Shown: positions 1,923 to 61,210 of the stretch, one piece after another
Numbering within the stretch: position 1 is the stretch's first letter
Layout: each line of letters begins with the position of its first letter
Assembly (NCBI GenBank): GCA_964544395.1
Contig: CAZJAO010000001.1
Location: 41,185 to 105,184, forward strand
Source of the DNA: Candidatus Woesearchaeota archaeon
Lineage (GTDB): Archaea; Nanobdellota; Nanobdellia; Pacearchaeales; GW2011-AR1
Length of the DNA: 64,000 nt
Direction: 5' to 3'
Translations under genes and position numbers: made by a program
The notes under the pieces: generated by a model
What the model was told of the DNA's origin: nothing
What the model saw: only the letters and a program-made list of their open reading frames with translations
The model's database searches: none

Positions 1923-2555
1923 TTATTTAGAAGGAATTGAGGAAATAAGTGAATTTAATTCACTATAATCTTTTTGAACAAGCTTGTCTCTTTCAGCAGT
2001 CAAATTCTCTGTGAGGGCTTGAATTATAGAATATAAAGAACCAGAAGATAAGTTCTCAATATTTAGGTAATTAATTTCTTTCTCTCCTTTTTTAGATGGA
2101 ATTCTTACTGAAAAAGATAAACCATCAGCACCTTCAGAAACCTTATACTCTATATTGTTTGAATATACTATAGCTCTTCCAGTTCTTGCAATTGTTCCAA
2201 AAGGATTATAAAACTCCATGGTTGCGGGAACTCTCTTAAAAGCATTCACGAAATCATTTGCTTGCTGCTGTAAATAATTCTTAGTCATGTTATCAAAGAA
2301 GTTTTGTTGAACAGGAGTAACCTTGTCTCCTTCATAAACTGAAGCCACTTGTGCATCAGCAGGCCATTCCTTAACAACATCAACTACTCCATCTCTTTTC
2401 TTATCCTCAAATTGCAAAATAGAACCGCTTGGAGTAACTGCAGTGAATTCAGTCCAGTCTCCTTTAGAATTCAATGTAAATGGATTAGACTGAGAAAATG
2501 CAGCCGTTGCTGCACCAGCCAATAAAAGTGTGATAAGAGGTAATATTTTTCCCAT
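1923..2555 (-). CDS. secreted/extracellular hypothetical protein
   Basis: signal-peptide-like N-terminus MGKILPLITLLLAGAATAAFSQS; 210 aa. Confidence 0.45.
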   Translation of the reverse strand: MGKILPLITLLLAGAATAAFSQSNPFTLNSKGDWTEFTAVTPSGSILQFEDKKRDGVVDVVKEWPADAQVASVYEGDKVTPVQQNFFDNMTKNYLQQQANDFVNAFKRVPATMEFYNPFGTIARTGRAIVYSNNIEYKVSEGADGLSFSVRIPSKKGEKEINYLNIENLSSGSLYSIIQALTENLTAERDKLVQKDYSELNSLISSIPSK

Positions 2556-3194: not shown

Positions 3195-3374
3195 TTACTC
3201 CGTGTCCGAGAATGATTCTTGCTGCAGCATGTTCATCAAATGAAATTCCCGTCGTTCCTCAATGAAATCCAAATCAGATAATGATTTTTTCTCTTCCGCT
3301 TCTTTTTTTGCCAATTTGTCTGCAACTTTCCACATCTCCTCATAGGTTTCAGGAGGAACAATATTATTTGACAT
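3195..3374 (-). CDS. hypothetical small acidic protein (59 aa; below the ORF-track length cutoff)
   Basis: manual translation of the minus strand gives MSNNIVPPETYEEMWKVADKLAKKEAEEKKSLSDLDFIEERREFHLMNMLQQESFSDTE; no clear SD. Confidence 0.25.
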   Translation of the reverse strand: MSNNIVPPETYEEMWKVADKLAKKEAEEKKSLSDLDFIEERREFHLMNMLQQESFSDTE

Positions 3375-3419
3375 AATTAATTTATTTCTTCGAACTTTTT
3401 ATATTTATATGCCCAATTA

Positions 3420-3623
3420 TCAACTATTTGGAGTCCAGTTTAATTTCACAGCCTGCCCAGTAACTGTAAGAAGATTATTGTATAACGTGCTTATCCAATC
3501 AGAAGAAAGTTGAAAAAATTTCTGCACATTATCCGGCTTGTACATCGCCAGATTGTTATTACTTATAATTAATAAAACCCCAAAAATCAGAACTATAAAA
3601 ATAAACAAAAAAGTTCTTCCCAT
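3420..3623 (-). CDS. hypothetical small membrane protein
   Basis: N-terminal TM helix; C-terminal ...NWTPNS similar to the C-terminus (...NWAAN...) of the upstream paralogous ORF. Confidence 0.35.
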   Translation of the reverse strand: MGRTFLFIFIVLIFGVLLIISNNNLAMYKPDNVQKFFQLSSDWISTLYNNLLTVTGQAVKLNWTPNS

Positions 3624-5464: not shown

Positions 5465-5809
5465 ATGACAGAAGGAATAATAGATTTCAGCCACTGGGAA
5501 AAAATAGATTTGCGAGTTGGAAAAATTGTGAAGGTTGAAGATATTGAAGGTGCTGACAAGCTTTACAAATTAACAGTAGATTTGGGAAAAGAAATTGGAA
5601 AGAGAACAGTCTGCGCTGGAATTAAAAGACATTATTCAAAAGAAGATTTGAAGAACAAGAAAATAATTTTATTTGTGAACCTCGCACCAAGAATGTTAAA
5701 GGGAATAGAAAGTCAGGGGATGATTCTTGCAGCAGTTAACAAAGATGAAAGCAAGGTTATTCTCTTAACACCAGAAAAGGATATTGAAGTTGGCAGCAAA
5801 GTGAGATAA
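5465..5809 (+). CDS. tRNA-binding domain protein (Trbp111/EMAP-like; the MetRS C-terminal domain encoded as a separate ORF)
   Basis: IDFSHWEKIDLRVGKIVKVEDIEGADKLYKLTVDLGKE...CAGIK matches the OB-fold tRNA-binding domain usually fused to the MetRS C-terminus; starts 1 nt after the metG stop in the +1 frame (taaaATG). Confidence 0.75.
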   Translation: MTEGIIDFSHWEKIDLRVGKIVKVEDIEGADKLYKLTVDLGKEIGKRTVCAGIKRHYSKEDLKNKKIILFVNLAPRMLKGIESQGMILAAVNKDESKVILLTPEKDIEVGSKVR

Positions 5810-6240
5810 TGGTTTCCAAAAAGCTATTTGATATTACTATTTATGAAACAGATAATTTTGAAGTTAACCAGGATTGGGAAGTCCCAATTCCAGGATTTTT
5901 CATCTTATCCCCTAAAAATAAAATAAAGTCAATAACAGAGTTTACAGATGGCGAATCCCATGAATTAATTGACATTCTTCGCAAAATCCGTAATGCTATG
6001 AGGACCGTTCTTAAAATTAAAGAAGTCTCTATTTTTCAAGAGGAAAAAACCAAATTCAATTTCCATATTTGGATTCTCCCTCAATATGATTGGATGAAAG
6101 AAAATTCATTAAAAGAAATTCTAAAGTATGCACAAAAAAATATGAAATCATCCAAAAACATGAAAGAGGTTAAAGAGGCGGCTGAGAAAGTCAAAGAATA
6201 CTTATCTTCTTCTCAAATTTCTGAAAACCCGGTCCAATAA
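5809..6240 (+). CDS. HIT-like superfamily protein (degenerate histidine triad)
   Basis: ...FHIWILP in the position of the HxHxHxx triad; size and hydrophobic pattern fit a HIT/GalT-like fold; weak call. Confidence 0.3.
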   Translation: MVSKKLFDITIYETDNFEVNQDWEVPIPGFFILSPKNKIKSITEFTDGESHELIDILRKIRNAMRTVLKIKEVSIFQEEKTKFNFHIWILPQYDWMKENSLKEILKYAQKNMKSSKNMKEVKEAAEKVKEYLSSSQISENPVQ

Positions 6241-18438: not shown

Positions 18439-20757
18439 TTATAAAAAAGAGACTTTATCTTCCGCCTCTGCCTCTTTCTTCTTCTGGTATTCTTCCATCC
18501 TTACCTTGTTTGTAGGGCATTGGGGATTAAAGCAGAAAATCCATGGCTTTCTGCCCTTTGAAAGTCTCATTAGCATAGGGAATCCGCATGCCTCACAGAT
18601 TTTCTCGGTTTTTTTGATTAGCCCATTCGGAGGCAGGCTGTAAGTGTTCTTGCATTCAGGATACTTGTTGCATGCGACAAAAGATCTTCGTGTCTTCTTG
18701 GAATATATTATTGCGAGATTTCCCTGTCCGCACTTAGGACATTTGTTCAAAGTATTCAATCTTTTTTGCTCCTCAATCAAATCAAGATTGGCTTCAAGCA
18801 ATTCTCTTCCAATATTATTCTTATTCTTATCAAAATGTACTATAATCTCTGTAATAGCATCTTCTGCTTCACGGATAATCTTGTCTTCTTTTTCCTGAAA
18901 TCCTTTATTCTCTTCCTGCATCCTTTCCATTTCATCTTCAAAATTTCTTGTCAGCTGTTCATCGATAATAATTGGTGAATATCTTTCCATTGTGGAAATC
19001 AACGACAAGCCAAGGGGGGTTGCTTCAATGCTTTTTTCCCTGATGTAACCCCGATCATAAAGAGTTTCCAGGATTGCAGCTCTTGTTGCTTTCGTTCCAA
19101 GATTTCTTTTTTCAAGTTCAGCCACAATTGAAGCAGGCGAATATCTTTTCGGTGGCTGCGTTTCTTTCTCTTCATTTCTTACTTTGGTAATTTCAAACTC
19201 GCCATCTGCATCGGGAATATTTTTTTCATCAATCTTAGCAGGATAAACTTCCATCCAGCCTTTCTTTCTGATAGAAGAGCCTTTTAATGTAAATTTCATT
19301 CCATCGATAACACCTGAAACTGTTTTTCTGTCAATAATTGCATCATCACAGAATAAAGCAACAAATCTTCTTACAATTAAATCATATAACTTCCTTTCTT
19401 CAGCAGATAATGTTGCGTCCATATTTTCACCTGTCGGGAAGATAGAAGGATGTGCTGAATCTGTTTTTTCTCCTTCAACAGGTTTGTCTCTTATAATTAA
19501 TTTCGTCATAGGATATTCTCTTGACAATTTTTTCAAAATCTCTCTATATTCAACAGATTCTGGAAGTTTCTGACTTGATGTTCTTGGATAAGAAATCATT
19601 CCGCCAAGATAAAGCGATTGTGCAATCTGCAGAGTTCTCGCAGGAGTAAAGCCGCAAAGCTTGTAAGCTTCGGTCTGCAAGGCCGTCAGATTAAAAGGAG
19701 GATTTGGGGGAATGCTCTGGCTTGTCTTCTCGGTCTTTAGCAAAATCTTCTTTCCTACAAGATTGTCAAATTTTCCAAGTTCTGCTTTATCAAAAATGTC
19801 TTTGTTATATTGAAGTTCAAAAATCATAGGACGTGTATCTTTGTTCTGGACTGTGATAAATACGTCCCAATACTTTACTGGCTTGAATTCCTGAATTTCT
19901 CTTTCTTTCTCAACAATAATATTAAGTGTCGGTCCTTGAACTCTTCCGATAGACATTATCTTGAATCTCCCCGTTGATTTTATAGCATCCATCAATGCTC
20001 TTGATAAATTAATTCCATAAAGCCAATCAAGATAATGCCTTGTTTCTCCTGCAATCGCCTGTCCCCAATCAAGATGAGGAAGTTTGTTATCATAAGAATT
20101 GTTCAATTCAGCAGAGGTTAATGTTGAAAATTTCATCCTGTTTGCATCTTCCTGCCCGCAAAGATATCTTACAATATTCAATCCAATAACTTCACCTTCC
20201 ACATCATAATCTGTAGCGATGGTCACGCTTCCAGCGCCTTTTACCAGTCTTAAAATAGAATCATAATATCTTTTCGTGAAATCATTTTTCTTGGCTAAAT
20301 AATTTGGAACCCAGTAAATATCAAAAACAGGTGTCCCAGCATTTCTTGTCCTTTGCGTCAGAGTAAACAAATGTCCGACAGCACAGGTTACAATAATTTT
20401 CTTTCCCTTTCTGTCAACTTCATAATAATTAACTCCTCCGATATTTTTCGTTGTAGCTTTTCCTAGGGCGCTTGCAATTTTTGCAGCTGCTTGTGGCTTT
20501 TCAGTTATAACTAATTCATATCCTTCTTTCTTGAGCTTAAATTTGGAAGATTCATATTTAACAGAACCAGATATTTTTTTTCCTGAAACAACTCTCTTCT
20601 TGCCTCTTTTTTTGGATCTCTTTATTTCAACAGTCGGCAAAGGCAATGCCTTAACAGACTTTTTCTCAACAGCATGAGCCAAATCAGTCTCACTTATAGG
20701 AAAATAATTCTCTGCTGTAACCTGTTCACGACTTTTCGTTTTCTTTTTTCTAAGCAT
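18439..20757 (-). CDS. topA: DNA topoisomerase I/III (type IA) with C-terminal zinc ribbons and a basic N-terminal extension
   Basis: Toprim start YELVITEKPQAAAKIA, type IA core motifs, C-terminal Cys4 ribbons (CPKCGQG...CNKYPECKN; CEACGFP...CFNPQCP); the ORF-track start at 20871 is TTG, the first ATG at 20757 (MLRKKKTK...) is used; ~85 basic residues precede Toprim. Confidence 0.85.
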   Translation of the reverse strand: MLRKKKTKSREQVTAENYFPISETDLAHAVEKKSVKALPLPTVEIKRSKKRGKKRVVSGKKISGSVKYESSKFKLKKEGYELVITEKPQAAAKIASALGKATTKNIGGVNYYEVDRKGKKIIVTCAVGHLFTLTQRTRNAGTPVFDIYWVPNYLAKKNDFTKRYYDSILRLVKGAGSVTIATDYDVEGEVIGLNIVRYLCGQEDANRMKFSTLTSAELNNSYDNKLPHLDWGQAIAGETRHYLDWLYGINLSRALMDAIKSTGRFKIMSIGRVQGPTLNIIVEKEREIQEFKPVKYWDVFITVQNKDTRPMIFELQYNKDIFDKAELGKFDNLVGKKILLKTEKTSQSIPPNPPFNLTALQTEAYKLCGFTPARTLQIAQSLYLGGMISYPRTSSQKLPESVEYREILKKLSREYPMTKLIIRDKPVEGEKTDSAHPSIFPTGENMDATLSAEERKLYDLIVRRFVALFCDDAIIDRKTVSGVIDGMKFTLKGSSIRKKGWMEVYPAKIDEKNIPDADGEFEITKVRNEEKETQPPKRYSPASIVAELEKRNLGTKATRAAILETLYDRGYIREKSIEATPLGLSLISTMERYSPIIIDEQLTRNFEDEMERMQEENKGFQEKEDKIIREAEDAITEIIVHFDKNKNNIGRELLEANLDLIEEQKRLNTLNKCPKCGQGNLAIIYSKKTRRSFVACNKYPECKNTYSLPPNGLIKKTEKICEACGFPMLMRLSKGRKPWIFCFNPQCPTNKVRMEEYQKKKEAEAEDKVSFL

Positions 20758-23478: not shown

Positions 23479-25818
23479 TTATCTGCTCATTCTCTTTCTT
23501 GCAGTTCTAACAAGAGTTGTAGAAACAATAATTACTCCGGAAATTATCATGATAAACAAGAAGTAATATGTTACTGTACCAATGCTAAGCTGAAGATCTC
23601 CAGGAAGCCCATTAAAGAATCCTTCAATGCCATTTAATACTCCTTGGAAGAAATTTGCAGCTTCCTTGGACGTTGTTATACATCTTCCTTCGCCACATCC
23701 AAGCTGGCAATGCTGCGATAAAATCCATACATTGCTTGAACAAACTTGTGAGTCATTCAAAAGACATCGTGTGTTTCCATTATTGCATTCAATAAGCCTT
23801 GCAAGAATCGTATAATTTGAAAATCCTGGAGAGATTGCAGTAAAGTAATAAAATTGGGAATCCTGCGAAGTCAAATTAGTGGGAAGTGCGGTCCAAGTTC
23901 CACCCGCGTTTCTATACAAGGAGATATTTATTGGGTCGAGATTATTTGCAGACATCCATGAATTATTTACTTGGAAATTAATTGCAACATTAGAAATTTG
24001 AGAATCATTCACACCAGTAGTCAAAATCTGGAAAGATTGATAGATATGATTGCTCGCTGCAATCTGAAGCTGAACAGGGGGGATTTGTGAAACAGTAACT
24101 ATTGCATTTGAAACCGGCTGATTAGTTGTTATCTGCAATTGTGTGAGCCCAATTGTAGCGGAATTGATGTTCATTGTTATTGGAACACCCGCAGTTGTTG
24201 AAAATAAAGTCGTGCTCGTTGACCCGTTATTTGTGATAATAGCTCCTCCTCCACCCCCGCTTCCTTCGCCGCCGGATGAACCACCATTATTTGATGAACC
24301 ATTTCCGTTTGATGACGAATAAGTAAAAGTAATACTTGCAGAACTTTGACTTCCAACGCTATTATTTGCATAAACAATCCAGGTATTAATTCCTGCTGCG
24401 GGAGTAATAGTAAAACTTGAACATGTTGGGTCCGGCGTTGAATTTGTTATGCCTCCATTCATGCTATACCAACAGGAAGCTAGGGCAACATCTGATGCAG
24501 AATAAATTAATTGTGGCGCAATGCTATAAGACGAATTTGTTGGAGAGGAGATTGAAACAGTTGGAGCAGCATTGTCTATAGTAATTGTATAATTAGTTGA
24601 ATTAAAGGCATAATTTCCCGCGGAATCAACCCCCAAAACATTCCATGTATAAACTCCATTTCCGGGAAAAGTATAAGTCCAACTTGTTGAATTTGAAGTT
24701 CCTAAAAGAGTAGTTAGGTTATAAGAATTAAATGGTGGAATTAAAGATAAGCCCCCATCAAATGCCATTGCAAGGACATTACCAAATGCAGTTCCATTAT
24801 AAAAAATAAATGTCCCATTTGGGAGAATTTTTTGAACATTTCCGCCTTCATTAGCAGCCCACATGTTTACACCGTCAAATGCAATTCCGAAAGGATAATA
24901 GCCAATAGGACCTCCAGTATAATTTGTCATTGTACCATTAGGAGATACTTTTGTTATATTACCCGGAGCAACACCATTTCCCGCATTAGAAGTCCACATA
25001 TTTGTTCCATCAAAAGCTATTTTATAATTTGAAGTTCCGGTTCCGAGGTATGTTGTCATGGTTCCATTGGGTGCAACTTTTGTAACACTATTACATCCAT
25101 AATTCGTAGTCCACATGTTTACACCGTCAAATGCAATTCCGACAGGATTGCATCCTGTTCCTGAATAAGTAGTCATTCCCCCTGTTGAATTTACTTTAGT
25201 AACACTACTGCCTCCAGTATTAGCCACCCACATGTTTACACCGTCAAATGCAATTCCGCTCGGAGCAGAACCTGTTCCTGAATAAGTAGTCATTCCCCCT
25301 GTTGAATTTACTTTAGTAACACTATTACCACCATTATTAGCGGTCCACATGTTTACACCGTCAAATGCAATATCATCGGGACCACTTCCCGTACTGCTAT
25401 AAGTTACCATGGTTCCATTTGGAAAAACTTTTGTAACACTGTTTCCGCCAGCATTAGCGGTCCACATGTTTACACCGTCAAATACTATTGCACTAGGACT
25501 ATTTCCAGTCGCAGTATAGTTAGCAATAATTGTCCCATTTGGGAGGACTTTTGACACAGCAGCGGTAGTAGTTACAGCCGCCCACATATTTCCCGCTCTG
25601 CCGACATTAATTCTGTCTCCTGTTGAGTCCCAGACAAACAATCTTGCACTTTGAAGAGGAACCGCACTGGATAAACTAACTAAAAGTGTCTGAGTAGGAT
25701 TAGTGGAATAGATATTGCTGGAAGCATTAAGATTTACTATAGGAGCTGCAGATAAAAAATTAAATAATAAAACAAAAAACACTAAAGAAATTACTAATAT
25801 CAACCTCTTTCTATGCAT
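23479..25818 (-). CDS. cell-surface beta-propeller protein (YVTN/NHL-like ~40-aa repeats) with Gly/Ser linker, Cys-rich module and C-terminal TM anchor; heavily N-glycosylation-sequon rich
   Basis: signal peptide; at least 8 repeats of the form VTKVxxNGTMTTYSGTGSxPxGIAFDGVNMWTAN.GGNS; linker SSNGNGSSNNGGSSGGEGSGGGGGA; C-terminal CxxGC-rich segment and TM helix plus RKRMSR tail; dozens of NxS/T sequons. Confidence 0.7.
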   Translation of the reverse strand: MHRKRLILVISLVFFVLLFNFLSAAPIVNLNASSNIYSTNPTQTLLVSLSSAVPLQSARLFVWDSTGDRINVGRAGNMWAAVTTTAAVSKVLPNGTIIANYTATGNSPSAIVFDGVNMWTANAGGNSVTKVFPNGTMVTYSSTGSGPDDIAFDGVNMWTANNGGNSVTKVNSTGGMTTYSGTGSAPSGIAFDGVNMWVANTGGSSVTKVNSTGGMTTYSGTGCNPVGIAFDGVNMWTTNYGCNSVTKVAPNGTMTTYLGTGTSNYKIAFDGTNMWTSNAGNGVAPGNITKVSPNGTMTNYTGGPIGYYPFGIAFDGVNMWAANEGGNVQKILPNGTFIFYNGTAFGNVLAMAFDGGLSLIPPFNSYNLTTLLGTSNSTSWTYTFPGNGVYTWNVLGVDSAGNYAFNSTNYTITIDNAAPTVSISSPTNSSYSIAPQLIYSASDVALASCWYSMNGGITNSTPDPTCSSFTITPAAGINTWIVYANNSVGSQSSASITFTYSSSNGNGSSNNGGSSGGEGSGGGGGAIITNNGSTSTTLFSTTAGVPITMNINSATIGLTQLQITTNQPVSNAIVTVSQIPPVQLQIAASNHIYQSFQILTTGVNDSQISNVAINFQVNNSWMSANNLDPINISLYRNAGGTWTALPTNLTSQDSQFYYFTAISPGFSNYTILARLIECNNGNTRCLLNDSQVCSSNVWILSQHCQLGCGEGRCITTSKEAANFFQGVLNGIEGFFNGLPGDLQLSIGTVTYYFLFIMIISGVIIVSTTLVRTARKRMSR
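24740..25560. repeat. intragenic tandem DNA repeats (period ~117-123 bp, at least 6 units) encoding the propeller blades
   Basis: catgtttacaccgtcaaatgcaattcc recurs near 24861, 25111, 25227, 25348 and 25469; adjacent units are near-identical over >40 nt (e.g. tcattccccctgttgaatttactttagtaacact near 25181 and 25301). Confidence 0.8.
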
Positions 25819-31288: not shown

Positions 31289-31513
31289 TTATCTTTTTTT
31301 CTTTTTTCCCTTTCTTCTGAAAATTTCTGAGACATCTTTTTTTACCCGTACCGCTTCATCCTTAAGGTCAACTATCGCTCCAGCAACCTTCTGAACTTTT
31401 TTCTTCTGGGTTGTATCACTCTTTAATTCCTTAGCTGATTTTTTAATAGAATGTTTTATCTTCTTAGAAGCAGACTTCAATTTCTTCTTGCCCCTCTTAA
31501 CCACCTTATTCAT
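31289..31513 (-). CDS. hypothetical highly basic (Lys-rich) small protein
   Basis: 74 aa, >35% Lys/Arg, ATG start. Confidence 0.4.
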   Translation of the reverse strand: MNKVVKRGKKKLKSASKKIKHSIKKSAKELKSDTTQKKKVQKVAGAIVDLKDEAVRVKKDVSEIFRRKGKKKKR

Positions 31514-47697: not shown

Positions 47698-48351
47698 ATG
47701 GATGAGCATTTACTTGGAGAACCCGTAAATAGTAATGATAAACAGGTATCACCTAATCCCAGGACTAAAATGTTGGAAGAGAGATTAGAAGATGCCGGGC
47801 GGAATGGCAGATCTATTGAACTTTCATTAATAATAGATGAATTAGGAATAGAGCCAGAACCAAGATATCAAGTCTACTATGATCAAGGCATCGAATGGAG
47901 ATCAAATTTATCTAAAGTTCAAATCGAAGGAATTAAAATGAGAATAGGATTAATTGAAGCCAAACCCAAAAAAAGGCAGAATTTGCGTGCAATCGCTGAA
48001 TCATATTCAAAGGAAGATGAAGCACGTTCAGCTCCTGCTGAACCTGAAAAGAGACTACAACCTAAGCAGTATACAATAGCTCAATACGACATTGATAAAA
48101 GTATGGATGGTTATGTAAAAGTAAAACGTGTTAATTTAAGAACTTATGAAGAAGCAATTAAATTCTTAGAAATGTTTGGTACACCTACATTAAAGATTGA
48201 GGGAGGAAAGCAGCTTCCCTTAAAAGAATGTACGCCCTCAAGAGTCATAGCTGCTGCAATTGGAAAATATGATGATGCCCAAATACGATTAAAAGAAAAG
48301 AGGGATAATTTAAGAGAAATAATTAATGGTTCTCATCCCGAGTACGAATAA
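47698..48351 (+). CDS. hypothetical protein (compositionally atypical) directly upstream of the HerA-like ATPase
   Basis: 217 aa, Arg/Glu/Ala/Pro-rich, ATG start; no recognisable motif. Confidence 0.4.
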   Translation: MDEHLLGEPVNSNDKQVSPNPRTKMLEERLEDAGRNGRSIELSLIIDELGIEPEPRYQVYYDQGIEWRSNLSKVQIEGIKMRIGLIEAKPKKRQNLRAIAESYSKEDEARSAPAEPEKRLQPKQYTIAQYDIDKSMDGYVKVKRVNLRTYEEAIKFLEMFGTPTLKIEGGKQLPLKECTPSRVIAAAIGKYDDAQIRLKEKRDNLREIINGSHPEYE

Positions 48352-48406
48352 ATATTAAAACTCTGCTTGGTATTTCTAATTATGAAAGTTTTCAAACTTC
48401 TTGTTT

Positions 48407-48445
48407 GGGATGCTGGAAATTGTAGAAACCCGCAGGAGGTTTCAC
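48407..48445 (+). promoter_or_regulatory. copy 1 of the conserved 5' leader hairpin that sequesters the AGGAGG ribosome-binding site
   Basis: ggatgctgg-aaattg-tagaaacccgcaggaggtttcac-ATG; stem gaaacc/ggtttc with loop cgcagga; the same sequence recurs at 59222-59251 with one extra base pair. Confidence 0.6.
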
Positions 48446-49750
48446 ATGTATGATATCATAATCGGGAGGGACGCTTCTGACAAAGAAAAATTTGGTGACA
48501 GGGGACTTATTTTCATTGGAAAGGGCTATGTTAAAATGGGACAATATACTTCTTTGAGCAATAGGATTTTAATGGACGTAGTAAGAAGCCATGTAGTTTT
48601 AGTAGCTGGAAAAAGAGGAAGTGGTAAATCTTATACATTAGGTGCAATTGCGGAAGAACTTTCTAATCTTCCAGCAGATATAAGCAAAAATATTGCTTCT
48701 CTGATTTTCGATACAATGGGGATTTATTGGACCATGAAATTCAGAAATGAAAAAGACAGAGACTTGCTTCTCGAATGGGGATTGAAAACCAAAAACTTGC
48801 CAGTTAAAATATTCGTTCCTTTCGGACATTTTGATGAATATCAAGCGAAAGGAGTTTCAGTAGATGAAAAATTCGCCCTTGATATAACTGAACTGAACCC
48901 CGAGGATTGGATTATTACTTTTGGTTTGGATATGATAAGTCCGACTTCAATATTAATCGAAAGAACAATCTCCGAATTGAAAACAAAAGGCAGATTTGGA
49001 ATAGGAGATATTATTGAAAGATTTGAAGGAGACGAAAAATCTGCACAGGAAACAAGAAATGCTGCAGTTTCTCTTTTTGAAGCAGCGCGAACATGGGGTG
49101 TTTTCTCAGAGAAAGGAAAAGATGCAACGCAAATAAGGGATTTGATTACCGCAGGAACTACTTCTGTTCTTGATTTAAGTGTATACAATTCAATTGGAGC
49201 TTTCAATGTCAGGGCATTAGTAATAAGCCTTGTATCAAGAAAGATTTTCAACGAAAGAATGGATGCAAGAAAAAAAGAGGAAGTGCAGTCAATTTCAAAA
49301 GGTGCAAATTATCTTTCATCATTGGAAACTAAAGAAACTCCCTTGACATGGTTGTTTATTGATGAAGCCCACGAATTTCTCCCGCTTACAGGAAAGACTG
49401 CCGCTTCTGATGCATTGATTCAATTGCTTAGAGAAGGAAGACAACCAGGAATCTCTGTTGTTCTTGCAACGCAGCAGCCGGGGCAGATTCATAGAGATGT
49501 CATGACTCAGTCAGACATAGTTATTTCTCACAGGGTTACATCAAAACCAGATTTGGACGCCTTAGGTTATATCATGCAAACTTATTTGAGCGAAAGCATA
49601 AGAAATTATATGAATGACCTTCCCACATTAAAAGGTTCTGCAATTATTCTTGATGATAATTCCGAAAGGATTTATCCCATGAGAGTTCGTCCAAGATTCA
49701 CATGGCATGGTGGTGAGGCTCCAACAGCTATCGGTGTAGAAAAAAAGTAA
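48446..49750 (+). CDS. HerA/FtsK-superfamily (DUF87-like) P-loop ATPase
   Basis: Walker A VLVAGKRGSGKSYTLG, Walker B WLFIDEAHEFLP, ATQQPGQI (HerA-type ATQRP box); the ORF-track start at 48401 is TTG and translates through the leader hairpin, so the ATG at 48446 after the SD is used. Confidence 0.6.
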   Translation: MYDIIIGRDASDKEKFGDRGLIFIGKGYVKMGQYTSLSNRILMDVVRSHVVLVAGKRGSGKSYTLGAIAEELSNLPADISKNIASLIFDTMGIYWTMKFRNEKDRDLLLEWGLKTKNLPVKIFVPFGHFDEYQAKGVSVDEKFALDITELNPEDWIITFGLDMISPTSILIERTISELKTKGRFGIGDIIERFEGDEKSAQETRNAAVSLFEAARTWGVFSEKGKDATQIRDLITAGTTSVLDLSVYNSIGAFNVRALVISLVSRKIFNERMDARKKEEVQSISKGANYLSSLETKETPLTWLFIDEAHEFLPLTGKTAASDALIQLLREGRQPGISVVLATQQPGQIHRDVMTQSDIVISHRVTSKPDLDALGYIMQTYLSESIRNYMNDLPTLKGSAIILDDNSERIYPMRVRPRFTWHGGEAPTAIGVEKK

Positions 49751-50527
49751 TCATAATACTCTCAAATCGATTCTTATTCTATACTTGTAAGGAGAAATTT
49801 CGCCTGCTTTCTTTATCTTAAGAATTTGAATTTTCTTCTTGTTTTTTTCTGCTTCATTCAGAACTTTATTTTTTATCAGATTAATTTCATCACTTTTGCA
49901 GAAATCATAATAATAAATTCTTGTTCCGGATTTGGAAAGCATAAATGCCTGTTTTAGAAAACTGTCTTTCAATTGTGGGCGAGGCATTACAATTGCATCA
50001 AATTTGTCTTTCAGTTTTTCTGCAACTTTCTTTATATCTCCGGGAACTAAAATGATTTTGTTCTTTAGTTTATTCAGCTCAATATTCAATTTAGCATATT
50101 CATTTGCTTTCTTATTTAGTTCATTGGAGTAGACTATCTTTGCTTTGGAAAGTTTGGCTATCACAATTGAGAAGGGGGAAATTCCTGCAAACATAACCAG
50201 AACCTTGTCTCCTTTTTTTATCTGGTGTGCAATTTCTTTCCTTTCATTGCTTAGTCTGGAGGAAAAATAAGTGTCATCAATGTTAAATCTGAACACGCAT
50301 CCATTCTCTTTGTAAAGAGCTTCTTTCGTTTTTTCTCCTGCAAGATATTTCGTAGTTTGTTTTCTTAGTCTGCCTTTGAATTTGCCTGTTTTCTCCAAAA
50401 CAGTTCGGATAGATTTATTTTTCTGAAGCAAGTCTTTTGCAAATTCTTTTTTGCTTTTGGAACTCACCCAAATTTGGAATTTCACAATTGCTATATTCCC
50501 CATAATATCAAAAGAACCTTTAATCAT
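49751..50527 (-). CDS. trm5: tRNA (guanine37-N1)-methyltransferase Trm5/Taw2-like (Met-10+ family)
   Basis: FDIMGNIAIVKF and VLVMFAGISPFSIVIAK (SAM-binding) match the archaeal Trm5/TYW2 class I MTase signatures; 258 aa. Confidence 0.75.
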   Translation of the reverse strand: MIKGSFDIMGNIAIVKFQIWVSSKSKKEFAKDLLQKNKSIRTVLEKTGKFKGRLRKQTTKYLAGEKTKEALYKENGCVFRFNIDDTYFSSRLSNERKEIAHQIKKGDKVLVMFAGISPFSIVIAKLSKAKIVYSNELNKKANEYAKLNIELNKLKNKIILVPGDIKKVAEKLKDKFDAIVMPRPQLKDSFLKQAFMLSKSGTRIYYYDFCKSDEINLIKNKVLNEAEKNKKKIQILKIKKAGEISPYKYRIRIDLRVL

Positions 50528-57980: not shown

Positions 57981-58778
57981 ATGGGTTTTATTAGGGGTTT
58001 GCTGGTAGTGTTTATTTCAATTGTTCTTATTTTATCAGTATTAGCTTCAAGCATTTTCTTTACAATTTCTTCATCCTTGGATTACAAAAATGTTCAGGGG
58101 CCGGAGATTAATGCTCTTCAGCCCATAATCGCGCAGTTAAACTTAGTGGAAATAATAAATTCGAAATCAAGTTATATAGTTGAATATTGCAAGACAAATT
58201 CAGATTTTGTTTATAACTATCAGAATTATACTCTTCATTTCCCTTGTCAAGATGCCAATAATACCTCGCTGATTCTGAATGATACCATAAATAATTTTGT
58301 AAGCGATTCTTATCATCAGCATTTTGACTGCGGTTATTGGGACTGTTTTGAAAAGTATTCTCCAGAGGCATTTTTGATTTCTGAAAAATCGCATGATTAT
58401 TGGTCTAATCTATTTTATATCGCTTTAGCTGCTGCAGTTGTTTCCGGAGTAGCATTAATTTTCCTATTCAAAAAGAAATATGATTTGTTATTTTTATTAG
58501 GAGTAGCATTAATTCTCTCTGCATTTTTAATCTCGGGAATTGGGAAACTGATTACTAGTTTAGCTAATCAACTACTTTCGAGTTTTAGTTCAATCTTCTT
58601 TTCGCAGATAAATTCTGTGTTCTGGAAATTGATAATTGCGGGGGGGATATTGATAATTGCGGGATTGGTAGTAGAGCTTTTTAGAGTTGGATTTAAAATC
58701 TATGATATGTTCTCGCGATTCAGAAAGGGAGGAGAAGACGCCCGTAAAGTAAAGCAGCCTCAAAAGAAAAAGAAATGA
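57981..58778 (+). CDS. hypothetical membrane protein
   Basis: N-terminal TM, Cys-containing extracellular segment, three C-terminal TM helices, basic tail; the ORF-track start at 57966 is TTG, the ATG at 57981 is used. Confidence 0.4.
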   Translation: MGFIRGLLVVFISIVLILSVLASSIFFTISSSLDYKNVQGPEINALQPIIAQLNLVEIINSKSSYIVEYCKTNSDFVYNYQNYTLHFPCQDANNTSLILNDTINNFVSDSYHQHFDCGYWDCFEKYSPEAFLISEKSHDYWSNLFYIALAAAVVSGVALIFLFKKKYDLLFLLGVALILSAFLISGIGKLITSLANQLLSSFSSIFFSQINSVFWKLIIAGGILIIAGLVVELFRVGFKIYDMFSRFRKGGEDARKVKQPQKKKK

Positions 58779-59230
58779 AATCTGTTTTCATAGAAGAAGA
58801 TAATTTTGATAAGGCAAGGAAAAAAATAAGAGAGAATCAAAATACCGAAATAATCTTTTCCAGCAATGATGATGAGACAAGAAGGAAGGTAACTGAAAAA
58901 GAGCCTGTCAAAATTCTCCTGATAAAACAGCGAGGAAGGAGAGATAGGTCTAAGCAGAGAGATTCTGGATTTAATTCAGTGATAGCAAAGATAGCAAAAA
59001 AGAAAGGCATAGAAATCGGTATATATCTTGACGAACTATTGGATTGCAAGGGAAAAGAAAAAGCAGAAGTCTTATCACGAATAGAACAAAATGTTAAGAT
59101 TTGCAAAAAAGAGAAGTTGAAAATGAAATTTATAGCATGGGGAGAGAAGAGCAGAAGAGATGAGTATGATTTGAAAGCTCTCGGCCTTGCCCTAGGAATG
59201 CCGACCTGGATGTCGGTGGATGCGGGATAG
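58775..59230 (+). CDS. possible RNase P protein subunit Rpp30/Rnp3-like (short form)
   Basis: C-terminal half ...IAKIAKKKGIEIGIYLDELL...KICKKEKLKMKFIAWGEKSRRDEYDLKALGLALGMP resembles the conserved C-terminal region of archaeal Rpp30 (from memory; unverified); 151 aa is short for the family. Confidence 0.35.
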   Translation: MKSVFIEEDNFDKARKKIRENQNTEIIFSSNDDETRRKVTEKEPVKILLIKQRGRRDRSKQRDSGFNSVIAKIAKKKGIEIGIYLDELLDCKGKEKAEVLSRIEQNVKICKKEKLKMKFIAWGEKSRRDEYDLKALGLALGMPTWMSVDAG

Positions 59231-59251
59231 AAAACCCGCAGGAGGTTTTCA
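59222..59251 (+). promoter_or_regulatory. copy 2 of the conserved SD-sequestering leader hairpin
   Basis: tgcgggatagaaaacccgcaggaggttttca-ATG; stem gaaaacc/ggttttc (7 bp, i.e. the copy-1 stem plus one compensatory A-T pair) with loop cgcagga; begins at the stop codon of the upstream gene. Confidence 0.6.
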
Positions 59252-59281
59252 ATGCGTACTTCAGCAATAAAAGATTTATAA
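59252..59281 (+). CDS. 9-codon upstream ORF (MRTSAIKDL) between the leader hairpin and pheS
   Basis: ATG 6 nt after AGGAGG; stop TAA 25 nt before the pheS ATG; pheS itself lacks an SD. Confidence 0.35.
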   Translation: MRTSAIKDL

Positions 59282-59306
59282 AATAATAACCTTTTTAACA
59301 TTCAAG

Positions 59307-60824
59307 ATGGATGTAAAAAGAATTTTGCAATCTTTAAGTCCGAATGAACTTAAAGTTCTGCCATATATTGAAGAAAAGGATATAGTAGTCGTCTGCAAGA
59401 AATCTAATTTAGATAAAACATCAGTAATCAGAGCTCTCGAATTTCTAAAAAACAAGAATCTAGTTGATTTATCATATAATAAGGAAAAAACAATTGATTT
59501 GGGTATCAATGGCATTCTATACAAGAGAAAAGGGCTTCCAGAAAGGAGATTGCTAAATCTTCTTGAAGAAAAGAGAATTATCACTCTAGAAGAAGCATTA
59601 AAACAAAGCAGATTATCTGAGGATGAATTTCGTGCTTCAATAGGGAGCTTAAAGAAAAAATCACTTATTGATATAAAGAACGGGAGAATTATCCTGAATT
59701 TTGGGGACCATGAAATCGCAAGAAAAATGCCGGAAGAAGTGTTCATAGAATCATTGCCCCTGAATCTAGATTCTTTACCTAAAGAGGAACATGAAACTTT
59801 TAAGGAATTGCAAAAAAGGCGAAATATAATAAAAATTACAGAAGAGAATCATATCAAAATAAAAGCGACTGAAAAAGGAAAAGAAATAATAAATTCAAGG
59901 ATAAAATCAGAAAGCCTGATTGAACAATTAACGCCAGATATTATCAAGTCTGAAAAATTATGGAAAGGAAAGAGATTCCGAACCTATGATGTTCTTTCAT
60001 CTGTTTCTAATATAAATGGGGGGAAAAGGCATTTTGTGAATCAGGCCGCGGATTACGCAAGAAGAGTATGGACCGATATGGGTTTCAAAGAGATGAGTGG
60101 AAACATGGTGGTCAGTTCATTCTGGAATTTTGATGCACTCTTTCAGCCTCAGGACCATCCAGCAAGAGAATTGGCAGACACCTTCTTCATTAATAAAAAA
60201 TCTTCTTTGCCAGAAAAAGAACTTGTAAAAAAAGTAAAAGAAAGTCATGAAAGAGGAATGGATAACAGCAAAGGATGGCAGTATCAATGGAGTGAAGAAG
60301 AAGCAAAAAGGTCAGTTCTGCGAACTCATACAACATCTCTCTCTGCTCAAACTTTATCACAGCTAAAAACAAAAGATTTGCCTCAGAAATTCTTCGCGCT
60401 TGGAAAATGTTTCAGAAATGAAACCGTTGATTGGTCTCATGGATTTGAATTTAATCAGACAGAAGGAATTGTCATAGATAAAAATGCAAATTTCAGGCAC
60501 CTTCTCGGTTATTTGAAGCAATTCTTTACAAAAATGGGTTTTGAAAAAATACGATTCAGACCAAGCTATTTCCCTTATACAGAGCCAAGTGTTGAAATAG
60601 ATGTCTGGCATCCAGAAAGAAAGATATGGGTTGAATTGGGTGGTGCAGGAATGTTCAGGCCGGAAGTTACAATTCCTTTGCTTGGTGAAAATATCCCTGT
60701 ATTGGCTTGGGGTCCCGGATTTGACAGAATGATAATGAATTATTATGGAATAAAGGACTTGAGAGAAGTATACAAGAATGATTTAGAAATGCTAAGAAAT
60801 ATAAAATTCTGGATGAAGACATAA
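59307..60824 (+). CDS. pheS: phenylalanyl-tRNA synthetase alpha subunit (archaeal/eukaryal type)
   Basis: class II motifs: motif 1 region (FQPQDHPARE), motif 2 (FRNE), motif 3 (GAGMFRPEV); N-terminal wHTH repeats; 505 aa. Confidence 0.9.
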   Translation: MDVKRILQSLSPNELKVLPYIEEKDIVVVCKKSNLDKTSVIRALEFLKNKNLVDLSYNKEKTIDLGINGILYKRKGLPERRLLNLLEEKRIITLEEALKQSRLSEDEFRASIGSLKKKSLIDIKNGRIILNFGDHEIARKMPEEVFIESLPLNLDSLPKEEHETFKELQKRRNIIKITEENHIKIKATEKGKEIINSRIKSESLIEQLTPDIIKSEKLWKGKRFRTYDVLSSVSNINGGKRHFVNQAADYARRVWTDMGFKEMSGNMVVSSFWNFDALFQPQDHPARELADTFFINKKSSLPEKELVKKVKESHERGMDNSKGWQYQWSEEEAKRSVLRTHTTSLSAQTLSQLKTKDLPQKFFALGKCFRNETVDWSHGFEFNQTEGIVIDKNANFRHLLGYLKQFFTKMGFEKIRFRPSYFPYTEPSVEIDVWHPERKIWVELGGAGMFRPEVTIPLLGENIPVLAWGPGFDRMIMNYYGIKDLREVYKNDLEMLRNIKFWMKT

Positions 60825-61210
60825 TGACCGAAAATTGTTTATTTTGCAAAATCGTGAAGGGGGAAATTCCTGCAATAAAAATCTGGGAAGATAAAAACCA
60901 TATTGCTTTCTTAGATATGAAACCTATAAACCCCGGACATTTATTAGTAATACCAAAAAATCATAAAGATTATGTTTTCGACTTAAGTGATAAGGATTAT
61001 TCTAAATTAATGTTAAAGGCTAAAGAAATTGCAAAAGATCTGAAAAGCAAGATGAAATCAAAAAGAATTGGCCTAATTGTAGAAGGTTTTGGAGTTCCGC
61101 ACGCACATGTTCACCTCATTCCAATTAATGAGATGCATGAATTAAATCCTGAGAGGGCAAAAATATCAAGCAATGAAGAGCTTGAAAAAATCGCGAAATT
61201 ATGGCAATAG
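60824..61210 (+). CDS. HIT-family (histidine triad) nucleotide hydrolase
   Basis: NPGHLLVIPKNH and the triad HAHVHLIP; start overlaps the pheS stop (ATAATG). Confidence 0.85.
   Translation: MTENCLFCKIVKGEIPAIKIWEDKNHIAFLDMKPINPGHLLVIPKNHKDYVFDLSDKDYSKLMLKAKEIAKDLKSKMKSKRIGLIVEGFGVPHAHVHLIPINEMHELNPERAKISSNEELEKIAKLWQ

What the first reader, a model, noticed from the sequence alone, without database searches (positions are those of the whole stretch)
48407..48448. Conserved RBS-sequestering hairpin leader (copy 1) ahead of the HerA-like ATPase, supported by a compensatory base-pair change in copy 2
tagaaacccgcaggaggtttcacATG (48423-48448) and tagaaaacccgcaggaggttttcaATG (59228-59254) are near-identical. 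They differ by one extra A in the 5' arm and one extra T in the 3' arm. The stem (gaaacc/ggtttc versus gaaaacc/ggttttc) is therefore preserved by a compensatory insertion.

The loop cgcagga plus the 3' arm contains the perfect SD AGGAGG placed 6-7 nt from the ATG, so the hairpin would occlude the ribosome-binding site. An upstream block ggatgcKgg is also shared. It offers an alternative pairing (tgcggg/cccgca) that is mutually exclusive with the SD stem, a switch-like arrangement.

This looks like a cis-regulatory RNA element (translational control or thermosensor-like) shared by two unrelated genes.
Basis: seen in the sequence. Interest (0 to 1): 0.65.

Follow-up and report, generated by a model that had tools for sequence, protein, structure and literature searches.

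The report
Mobile ribosome-site hairpin repeat, DPANN archaea
The two look-alike hairpins are copies of a short, apparently undescribed repeated element found in many DPANN archaea: one copy now seems to supply the ribosome-binding site and start codon of the HerA-like gene, and the other only clipped the tail of a neighbouring gene.

Summary

They are not a gene-specific regulator. Six syntenic relatives lack the HerA-site sequence and three lack the p30-site sequence, so both copies are lineage-specific insertions.
- Copy 1 is 64 nt placed directly after the ancestral leaderless ATG of HerA. It creates a 23-codon upstream ORF whose UGA overlaps the new SD-led HerA AUG.
- Copy 2 is a net +54 nt inside the 3' end of an RNase P p30-like gene. 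Its "ATG" opens only a 9-codon relic ORF.

The 17-mer recurs in about 45 DPANN genome bins, several times per genome. Both hairpins covary. 47 of 79 copies lie 0-8 nt before an ATG that opens an ORF of at least 40 codons, against 3.5% of random positions. The downstream genes are unrelated housekeeping genes. Copies also sit inside tRNA introns, directly 5' of tRNA genes, in frame within a methyltransferase gene, and in tandem arrays.

No Rfam family or paper matches. My best reading is a small mobile structured element acting as a portable SD leader. How it moves is unknown.

The parts
48350..48360 (+). TATA-like box aaatattaaaa of the ancestral HerA promoter, about 27 nt upstream of the ATG at 48382
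   Evidence: It is conserved in sequence and spacing in relatives L015, L016, L142, L143 and L144, and less exactly in L018. In the relatives without the insert it lies about 22 nt before the HerA ATG, the arrangement of a leaderless gene. The TSS is inferred, not measured.
48382..48453 (+). 23-codon upstream ORF MKVFKLLVWDAGNCRNPQEVSHV*. It starts at the ancestral leaderless ATG, runs through the hairpin, and ends at a TGA (48451-48453) overlapping the HerA start (ATGTATGA).
   Evidence: Read. Related uORFs ending just after the main ATG occur in the same subfamily: L139, L140, L016, L142.
48385..48448 (+). Copy 1: the 64-nt inserted element (equivalently 48382-48445, because ATG flanks both ends). 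It retains the 5' GTTTT repeat, a vestigial P1 hairpin, the GGATGCTGGA block, the P2 hairpin and an ATG.
   Evidence: Absent from the orthologous site in six relatives: L015, L016/L017, L018, L143, L144. Scores 48.6 bits with covariance model R1 and 33.2 bits with the long-form model R2.
48408..48417 (+). Conserved linker block GGATGCTGGA
   Evidence: Nearly invariant across the 71 aligned family members.
48425..48443 (+). P2 hairpin: arms GAAACC (48425-48430) and GGTTTC (48438-48443), loop CGCAGGA (48431-48437). The SD AGGAGG is at 48434-48439.
   Evidence: Fold of -7.5 kcal/mol, z -3.4. Family covariation.
48446..49750 (+). HerA-like ATPase gene (434 aa; DUF87/HerA_C), with its start codon 6 nt after the SD
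   Evidence: Pfam match. Homologues are 434-438 aa and start MYD/MPYD, up to 94% identical.
58775..59230 (+). RNase P p30-like gene whose last codons (MSVDAG) and TAG stop come from the insert
   Evidence: Weak PF01876 hit, 23.6 bits against a 35-bit cut-off; orthologues in L015 and L018 are annotated with PF01876. Relatives end ...W-I-I-K-D-L*.
59210..59266 (+). Copy 2: a 57-nt inserted segment replacing 3 nt (net +54). It contains a remnant of the P1 3' arm (ATGTCGG), GGATGCGGGA (59218-59227), a TAG stop (59228-59230), the P2 hairpin, an ATG, and 15 nt of unknown origin.
   Evidence: Absent in L015, L016 and L018. Scores 53.9 bits with R1 and 46.4 bits with R2.
59230..59250 (+). P2 hairpin of copy 2: arms GAAAACC and GGTTTTC, loop CGCAGGA (59237-59243). 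The SD AGGAGG is at 59240-59245.
   Evidence: Fold of -8.4 kcal/mol, z -3.6.
59252..59281 (+). 9-codon relic ORF MRTSAIKDL*. Its last four codons and stop are the ancestral p30 tail, still in the ancestral frame.
59276..59284 (+). TATA-like box tttataaaa of pheS, 27 nt before the pheS ATG at 59307. It lies in the old p30 tail and is not part of the element. It shows that copy 2 does not lead pheS.
   Evidence: Conserved in L015, L016 and L018.

Best explanation
Both sequences are copies of a short (about 40-90 nt), multi-copy, structured insertion element that is widespread in DPANN archaea.

Element anatomy. The full unit reads GGTTTT - P1 hairpin (7 bp, loop YCRGAGGCAA) - GGATGCTGGA - P2 hairpin (7-9 bp, loop CGCAGGA) - GGTTTT, usually followed 2-6 nt later by an ATG. 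P2 holds a Shine-Dalgarno sequence, half in its loop and half in its 3' arm.

Copy 1. In this genome the element landed directly after the ATG of the formerly leaderless HerA-like gene (shown). That pushed the coding sequence 64 nt away from the transcript's 5' end. I infer that HerA is now translated from the element's own SD and ATG. Ribosomes that start at the old 5'-terminal AUG probably help: they read a 23-codon upstream ORF through the hairpin and stop on a UGA overlapping the new AUG (termination-reinitiation, or melting of the hairpin).

Copy 2. This is a 5'-truncated copy that landed in the last codons of the RNase P p30-like gene (shown). It supplies a premature TAG and leaves an SD-ATG that opens only a 9-codon relic ORF. 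It is most likely neutral, with no regulatory role (inferred).

Family level. The element behaves as a portable SD leader that survives where it restores or preserves expression. How it moves is unknown.
For: Insertion is shown by empty orthologous sites.
- HerA: six relatives have TATA followed about 22 nt later by ATG, with no leader.
- p30: three relatives end WIIKDL* and have a 22-24 nt spacer to pheS.
- Reciprocal case: the relative L016 carries the same subfamily (GGTTGCTGGAAATTGCAGAAACCCGCTGGAGGTGTCACATG) directly after the leaderless ATG of RFC-S, where the window, L015 and L018 are empty.

Family.
About 72 copies with the upstream GGATGCTGGA block come from about 45 DPANN bins, with up to 8 exact-core copies per bin.

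Structure.
- P2 outer pairs covary.
- All 7 pairs of P1 show compensatory changes, and P1 was not part of the search pattern.

Start-codon association.
- 47 of 79 copies have an ATG opening at least 40 codons within 0-8 nt, against 3.5% of random positions and 7.4% of other GGAGG sites.
- Downstream genes are unrelated: EF-1a, r-proteins, aIF2, proteasome, Spt5, FttA, DnaG, SecDF, NDK, HerA, Mre11, Rad50, SMC, pheT, GGDEF and others.

HerA must still be expressed.
- The gene is intact and 94% identical to its closest homologue.
- HerA is one of only 4 long ORFs in the window with GGAGG 3-10 nt before the ATG.

Other points.
- uORFs of the same design occur in L139, L140, L016 and L142.
- Both window copies are fixed and identical in 14 independent contigs.
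Against: - There are no expression data. The TSS, translation of the uORF and use of the SD are all inferred from sequence.
- No terminal inverted repeats, no clear target-site duplication beyond a flanking ATG, and no transposase or RT partner were found. 'Mobile' therefore rests on presence/absence and copy number only.
- Near-identical sequence across several DPANN lineages (Woese-, Pace-, Aenigm- and Micrarchaeota) is more than a decaying selfish repeat would normally keep. It may point to a host function I have not identified.
- All copies were collected through an exact 17-mer, which inflates apparent conservation.
- An in-frame ATG at 48410 could give HerA a 12-residue N-terminal extension instead.
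- In longer folding windows the P2 hairpin competes with other pairings and the overall z-scores are unremarkable.
- The anti-SD of this organism's 16S rRNA was not available to check.
Confidence: 0.7

Rival explanations
1. Host-selected functional RNA module. The two-hairpin unit is a conserved structured RNA, for example a ribosome-recruiting or standby site or a protein-binding leader. It is spread and kept because it raises or tunes translation, not because it is selfish. On this view the hairpin displays the SD rather than hiding it.
For: - Strong nucleotide conservation of the unpaired blocks (GAGGCAA, GGATGCTGGA, CGCAGGAGG) across DPANN lineages, with covarying stems.
- Both hairpin loops carry SD-like CAGRAGG.
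- Many downstream genes are highly expressed translation genes.
- Fixed spacing to the ATG.
Against: - Copies occur where no such function is possible: copy 2 in the window, tRNA introns, 5' of tRNA genes, tandem arrays, and a diverged copy in opposite orientation in a tRNA-Lys intron.
- Close relatives manage without it at the same genes.
- There is no functional coherence among the target genes.
Confidence: 0.17
2. One reading: a dedicated cis-regulatory switch (RBS-sequestering hairpin, thermosensor-like or ligand-responsive) that controls HerA and a second gene through mutually exclusive pairings.
For: - The hairpin includes part of the SD.
- An upstream UGCKGG can pair with CCCGCA, perfectly in copy 2 and in 7 of 71 family members.
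- The stem is of modest stability.
Against: - Copy 2 has no gene to control.
- The element precedes dozens of unrelated genes.
- The alternative helix has a central U-C mismatch in 64 of 71 copies.
- No Rfam family matches.
Confidence: 0.06
3. The inserts are introns removed from the RNA by the archaeal splicing endonuclease (bulge-helix-bulge introns). Splicing would restore a leaderless HerA mRNA and the ancestral p30 tail.
For: - The same element lies inside canonical-position tRNA introns: L059 tRNA-Ile, L088 tRNA-Phe, and L034 tRNA-Ile with three tandem units.
- The p30 insert and the RsmB-like inserts are multiples of 3 nt.
Against: - A BHB scan that ranks the true tRNA introns of L059 and L034 first finds no BHB fitting the insert borders in W1, W2, L086 or L127.
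- A 5' exon of 3 nt cannot form the motif at HerA.
- The tight SD-to-ATG spacing in 59% of copies makes no sense if the element is spliced out.
Confidence: 0.05
4. Chance resemblance of two strong ribosome-binding sites, or programmed translational bypass of copy 2 (T4 gene 60-like: GGA-UAG followed by a hairpin).
For: - Copy 2 reads GGA TAG directly before a hairpin, as at the gene 60 take-off site (own knowledge).
- GGAGG is a generic motif.
Against: - Chance is excluded by the family.
- The only downstream GGA is inside the SD, and landing there does not restore the p30 frame (read).
Confidence: 0.01

Closest known systems
Rickettsia palindromic elements (RPE) and other small bacterial repeats (REP/BIME, ERIC, Correia/CREE)
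   Same: Short, multi-copy, hairpin-forming, non-coding repeats. They are found in intergenic regions and, for RPEs, inserted in frame into protein genes and into RNA genes. They show presence/absence between close relatives and can alter expression of neighbouring genes (own knowledge). Here the matching features are in-frame copies in an RsmB-like gene, copies in tRNA genes and empty orthologous sites.
   Different: - Archaeal, and smaller (40-90 nt).
- No sequence relation tested or expected.
- Carries a Shine-Dalgarno sequence.
- Sits at a fixed distance before start codons in 59% of copies.
- Found across several DPANN lineages with near-identical cores.
Leaderless upstream ORFs coupled to a downstream gene (for example the polycysteine leaderless sORFs of mycobacteria, bioRxiv 10.1101/834739; translational coupling review PMC12548453). 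Both were seen only as titles and abstracts.
   Same: A short ORF begins at the 5'-terminal AUG of the transcript and ends at or just after the start of the main gene. Its translation can open structure and deliver ribosomes to the main start.
   Different: Here the arrangement was created by an insertion. The uORF peptide is not conserved between subfamilies (DAGNCRNPQEVSH versus DAGFIKTRRRFL), so no amino-acid sensing is implied. Nothing has been tested experimentally.
SD-occluding hairpins / RNA thermometers (ROSE, fourU)
   Same: A small hairpin in a 5' leader that pairs part of the SD close to the AUG.
   Different: Only GG of GGAGG is paired. There is no coherent heat-shock or virulence gene set. 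Copies also occur outside leaders.
IS200/IS605-derived miniature elements (PATEs)
   Same: Two subterminal hairpins, no obvious target duplication, strand-specific copies, apparently clean empty sites, and the same trinucleotide (ATG) flanking the insert at HerA and RFC-S.
   Different: No TnpA or TnpB partner or full-length element was seen in the DNA held. The element is much shorter. Target specificity is not established.
Mobile archaeal tRNA introns (intron transposition in Thermoproteales; own knowledge)
   Same: Related short sequences recur in introns of different tRNA genes.
   Different: Most copies here are in mRNA leaders, and those lack the BHB motif. In tRNA introns the element looks like cargo, not like the splice signal.

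Membership tests
RNA thermometer / SD-sequestering regulatory hairpin | SD and/or AUG base-paired in a leader hairpin | tested here: inconclusive
   Only the last two G of GGAGG are in the P2 stem; GGA is in the loop.
RNA thermometer / SD-sequestering regulatory hairpin | Sits in the 5' UTR of the gene it controls | tested here: not met
   True for copy 1. Copy 2 precedes only a 9-codon relic ORF.
RNA thermometer / SD-sequestering regulatory hairpin | Temperature-dependent melting that changes translation | not testable with these tools
   Needs reporter or structure-probing experiments.
Riboswitch or regulon-specific cis-regulatory RNA | Associated with a functionally coherent set of genes | tested here: not met
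   Downstream genes span translation, replication, repair, secretion, proteolysis and signalling. No Rfam hit.
Small non-autonomous repeat element (MITE/REP/RPE-like) | Many dispersed copies per genome | tested here: met
   2 copies in this 64-kb window. Up to 8 exact-core copies in one bin; about 45 bins in total.
Small non-autonomous repeat element (MITE/REP/RPE-like) | Filled and empty orthologous sites in close relatives | tested here: met
   HerA, p30 and RFC-S sites.
Small non-autonomous repeat element (MITE/REP/RPE-like) | Terminal inverted repeats and a target-site duplication (MITE in the strict sense) | tested here: not met
   The ends are direct (GGTTTT ... GGTTTT), not inverted. 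The only flanking repeat is ATG at the HerA and RFC-S inserts.
Small non-autonomous repeat element (MITE/REP/RPE-like) | A related autonomous element encoding the mobility enzyme | tested here: inconclusive
   None was seen in the roughly 550 kb of flanks held. One candidate interval holds TFE-like and EndA-like genes only, assigned by reading the translations. Whole genomes were not searched.
Rickettsia palindromic element-like behaviour | In-frame, stop-free insertion inside protein-coding genes | tested here: met
   RsmB-like gene in L086 (+24 aa) and L127 (two units). This is rare: 2 of 75 copies.
Archaeal bulge-helix-bulge intron | BHB motif (3-nt bulge, 4-bp helix, 3-nt bulge) at the insert borders | tested here: not met
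   The scan ranks the true introns of L059 and L034 first (it misses the relaxed one of L088) but finds nothing fitting the borders of W1, W2, L086 or L127. Relaxed motifs are not excluded.
Programmed translational bypass (T4 gene 60 type) | Take-off codon matched by an identical landing codon that restores the frame | tested here: not met
   GGA-TAG plus a hairpin is present in copy 2, but the only downstream GGA (in the SD) gives the wrong frame.
Leaderless-uORF translational coupling | uORF starting at the transcript's 5'-terminal AUG and stopping at or over the main start | tested here: met
   ATG at 48382 lies 27 nt after the TATA box. The TGA at 48451-48453 overlaps the ATG at 48446. The TSS itself is inferred.
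Leaderless-uORF translational coupling | Main-gene translation depends on uORF translation | not testable with these tools
   Needs reporter assays or ribosome profiling.

The most novel reading that the evidence does not exclude
The element is a new class of small structured RNA-based mobile element. The proposal is a roughly 70-nt unit, perhaps derived from circularised tRNA-intron RNA, that is copied (rolling-circle style, giving tandem arrays and terminally redundant GGTTTT ends) and joined precisely to the 5' ends of transcripts. That would explain why copies abut the first codon of leaderless genes and the first base of tRNA genes, why they share a common 3' end with variable 5' truncation, and why they sit in tRNA introns. 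On this reading it has been rewiring translation initiation from leaderless to SD-led across DPANN archaea.
Probability: 0.15. Interest if true: 0.85.

Novelty: new variant of a known kind. Interest (0 to 1): 0.62.

Why it matters
- DPANN archaea have tiny, gene-dense genomes. In this window only four long genes have a GGAGG-type SD, and the starts I examined look leaderless. A repeat that can drop into the first codon of a gene and still keep it expressed, because it brings its own ribosome-binding site and start codon, is a concrete route by which genes could switch between the two modes of translation initiation.
- It would also be a source of new upstream ORFs, altered protein ends and enlarged tRNA introns in uncultivated organisms.
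- Practically, gene callers mis-extend N-termini through it. P0004 is called at 457 aa, and the window ORF is called from TTG 48401.
- Its sharp sequence signature could serve as a marker for DPANN contigs.
- If the element turns out to be a functional or RNA-mobilised structure, it would be a new RNA family with dozens of covarying examples already in hand.

Tried and rejected
- att-site idea: I asked whether the two 25-nt direct repeats 10.8 kb apart bracket an integrated element. Rejected, because the interval holds core genes (FEN1, RFC large and small subunits, Trm5) in conserved synteny.
- Known RNA families: the Rfam gathering scan of the window and an E<=1 scan of eight element-rich loci returned only tRNAs.
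- BHB-intron reading of the mRNA copies: no fitting motif.
- Translational bypass or readthrough of the TAG in copy 2: no landing codon. The in-frame relation to the old tail is noted, but it has a 1-in-3 chance expectation.
- Conserved leader peptide: rejected, because subfamilies with different linker lengths read the same nucleotides in different frames.
- RNA-level versus DNA-level selection from G-U against A-C mismatches: uninformative.
- Virus carriage: one IMG/VR hit, which lacks the family's upstream block.
- Autonomous partner: orphan-end search and ORF reading found only housekeeping genes.
- Donor of the 15 extra nt in copy 2: not found in the data held.
- More copies in the window: the next-best covariance-model hits score 11.6 bits or less and lie in coding sequence.
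- Literature: the core sequence and several keyword sets gave nothing relevant.
- The metagenome scan for the W1 subfamily returned only 3 loci, so the copy number in the source genome remains unknown.
Full report
**1. The observation.**
The window is AT-rich (34% GC). It encodes archaeal replication and translation genes: PolB, FEN1, RFC large and small subunits, and PheRS alpha and beta. The closest HerA homologues are labelled Nanoarchaeota, Pacearchaeota or Woesearchaeota, so the organism is a DPANN archaeon.

They share an exact 17-mer, AAACCCGCAGGAGGTTT. Their 11-nt core occurs twice, where 0.13 matches (one mismatch allowed) are expected. Each folds into a 6- or 7-bp hairpin around the loop CGCAGGA. 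MFE is -7.5 and -8.4 kcal/mol, with z about -3.5. AGGAGG lies 6 nt before an ATG in each. Both loci are identical in 14 contigs from independent assemblies.

**2. Both copies are insertions.**
Synteny around HerA is conserved in relatives with 85-94% identical HerA.

- *HerA site.* At the HerA start, six relatives read TATA (aaatattaaaa), about 22 nt, then ATG. This is the layout of a leaderless archaeal gene. The window keeps the TATA box (48350-48360) and that ATG (48382) but has 64 extra nt before codon 2.
- *p30 site.* At the second site, relatives end the RNase P p30-like gene with W-I-I-K-D-L-stop, 22-24 nt before a leaderless pheS. The window has a net +54 nt (59210-59266). The p30 gene now ends MSVDAG-TAG. 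The 'ATG' of copy 2 opens only MRTSAIKDL-stop, whose last codons are the old p30 tail. The pheS TATA box (59276-59284) lies downstream of the element. Copy 2 therefore leads no gene.
- *Reciprocal case.* Relative L016 carries a 40-nt copy of the same subfamily directly after the leaderless ATG of RFC-S, where the window, L015 and L018 are empty.
- *A second filled HerA site.* A third relative (L142, HerA 87% identical) has a longer, diverged copy at exactly the HerA position.

**3. A large family.**
About two thirds are in DPANN bins (Woese-, Pace-, Nano-, Aenigm- and Micrarchaeota), with several copies per bin. The high-GC bacterial hits lack the flanking features and look like chance.

The family consensus is tGGATGCTGGA, then 3-8 nt, then a hairpin (outer arms - AAACC - CGCAGGA - GGTTT - outer arms), then 2-6 nt, then ATG. 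A long form adds a 5' GGTTTT and a P1 hairpin with the invariant loop GAGGCAA.

- The outer pairs of P2 covary: 56 cells changed on both sides against 23 +/- 3 in shuffles.
- All seven P1 pairs show compensatory changes. P1 was not part of the search pattern, so this is unbiased.
- Covariance models find only the two copies in the window, at 53.9 and 48.6 bits. The next hit scores 11.6 bits.
- No Rfam family matches.
- The core sequence and several keyword searches found no description in the paper library.

**4. Where copies sit.**
47 of 79 copies are followed within 0-8 nt by an ATG opening at least 40 codons. The figure is 3.5% for random positions and 7.4% for other GGAGG sites. The genes are unrelated: EF-1a, r-proteins S17e/L44e/L1/L10e, aIF2 beta and gamma, proteasome, Spt5, FttA, DnaG, SecDF, NDK, Lhr, HerA (again, in L029), Mre11, Rad50, SMC, pheT, GGDEF and others. 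Some are Pfam-confirmed; others I named from their N-terminal sequences.

Other contexts:
- Inside canonical-position tRNA introns: L059, L088, and L034 with three tandem units.
- Directly 5' of tRNA genes: L108, L141.
- In frame and stop-free inside an RsmB-like gene: L086, and L127 with two units.
- Tandem arrays of 48-72-nt units: L026, L071, L114.
- A diverged copy in opposite orientation in a tRNA-Lys intron: L112.

Copies share the 3' end but are truncated or deleted to different extents at the 5' side. W1 keeps the GTTTT and a vestigial P1, W2 starts in the P1 3' arm, L016 starts at GGTTGC, and some are P2 only.

**5. How copy 1 most likely works.**

*Shown:*
- The insertion.
- An intact, highly conserved HerA.
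- AGGAGG 6 nt before its ATG.
- A 23-codon ORF from the ancestral ATG through the hairpin to a TGA overlapping the HerA start (ATGTATGA).

*Inferred:*
- Transcription still starts at about 48382.
- HerA can no longer be translated as a leaderless mRNA, so it depends on the element's SD and AUG.
- Ribosomes translating the uORF unfold P2 and reinitiate.

Full GGAGG leaders are rare here, at 4 long ORFs in 64 kb, so the SD was imported with the element. uORFs of the same build occur in L139, L140, L016 and L142. The uORF peptide differs between subfamilies because the same nucleotides are read in different frames. Selection therefore acts on the nucleic acid, not on a peptide.

**6. Alternatives.**
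- *Dedicated switch or thermosensor.* It does not fit copy 2 or the spread of target genes. The proposed alternative helix has a central mismatch in 64 of 71 copies and cannot be tested for covariation.
- *Splicing as BHB introns.* Not supported: my scan ranks the real tRNA introns of L059 and L034 first, but finds nothing at the mRNA insert borders.
- *Bypass, chance and att sites.* All rejected.
- *Host-selected RNA function.* This remains a live rival, because the unpaired blocks are conserved across lineages far more than I would expect for junk.

**7. Limits.**
- Copies were ascertained by an exact 17-mer.
- The genome scan was truncated.
- The source genome outside the window was not available.
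- No transcript or protein data exist.
- The mobility mechanism is unknown: no inverted termini and no partner gene.
- RNA-level and DNA-level constraint could not be separated.

**8. Verdict.**
It is wrong on being a gene-specific regulator of two genes. What is there is a previously undescribed family of small structured insertion elements that act as portable SD leaders in DPANN archaea.

Noticed in passing
window 50171-50190 and 60856-60875: Exact 20-mer GAAGGGGGAAATTCCTGCAA shared between the antisense strand of the Trm5/TYW2 'FAGISPF' motif and the HIT-family 'VKGEIPA' motif (26 of 29 identical over 50162-50190 versus 60847-60875). It is colinear with the two element copies and has similar spacing (10685 versus 10806 nt). 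My back-of-envelope estimate is about 0.01 chance 20-mer repeats in 64 kb. Unexplained.
   Followed up: no
window 24839-25523: Four to five tandem 117-nt (39-codon) repeats in a locally GC-richer stretch (0.383), presumably a repeat-domain protein.
   Followed up: no
L024 about 1640-1720 and 3300-3450 (-), L066, L093 4120-4210, L128: A second conserved module (GAGTTTACACGAGATAATCCAAAAGTGAGTGTGGGCTCGAGCAGAAAAAAACTCGAAGG) accompanies or is nested in the element before the S17e, DRG GTPase, EndA-like and Mre11 genes. The family looks modular or mosaic.
   Followed up: partly
L112 about 5798-5957 and 5960-6060; L049 about 1200-1300: A tRNA-Lys intron carries a diverged copy in opposite orientation. 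Downstream, the element is flanked by duplicated 3' parts of the tRNA (from the T arm onward). The element's 3' end GGAGGTTTTCAA resembles a T arm, GGGGGTTCAAA.
   Followed up: partly
window 59252-59266: 15 nt after the ATG of copy 2 (ATGCGTACTTCAGCA) belong neither to the family consensus nor to the ancestral p30 tail. They may be flank carried over from a donor locus. No second copy exists in the data held.
   Followed up: partly
window 48401-48445: The ORF finder extends HerA upstream through the element (TTG 48401; in-frame ATG 48410, giving MLEIVETRRRFH-MYD...). The homologue P0004 is called at 457 aa for the same reason (MLELAG...LRRRFRM-AYD). This is a likely systematic N-terminal mis-annotation caused by the element.
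   Followed up: yes
window 58775-59230: The RNase P p30-like protein is short (151 aa) and scores below the Pfam cut-off (23.6 against 35 bits), although orthologues in relatives carry the annotation. It is now also missing its conserved IIKDL tail.
   Followed up: partly
window 49750-49751, compared with L015 11309-11740, L018 11312-11776 and L142 2886-3449: Relatives have an extra 143-187-aa ORF between HerA and Trm5 that the window lacks. The ORF upstream of HerA (47698-48351) is also variable between relatives.
   Followed up: no
window 18890-18930 (-), 2213-2244 (+), 31362-31395 (-): Weak covariance-model hits (11.6 bits or less) containing GGWTGCNGGA-like strings. The first appears to be coding sequence, and all are probably chance.
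   Followed up: partly
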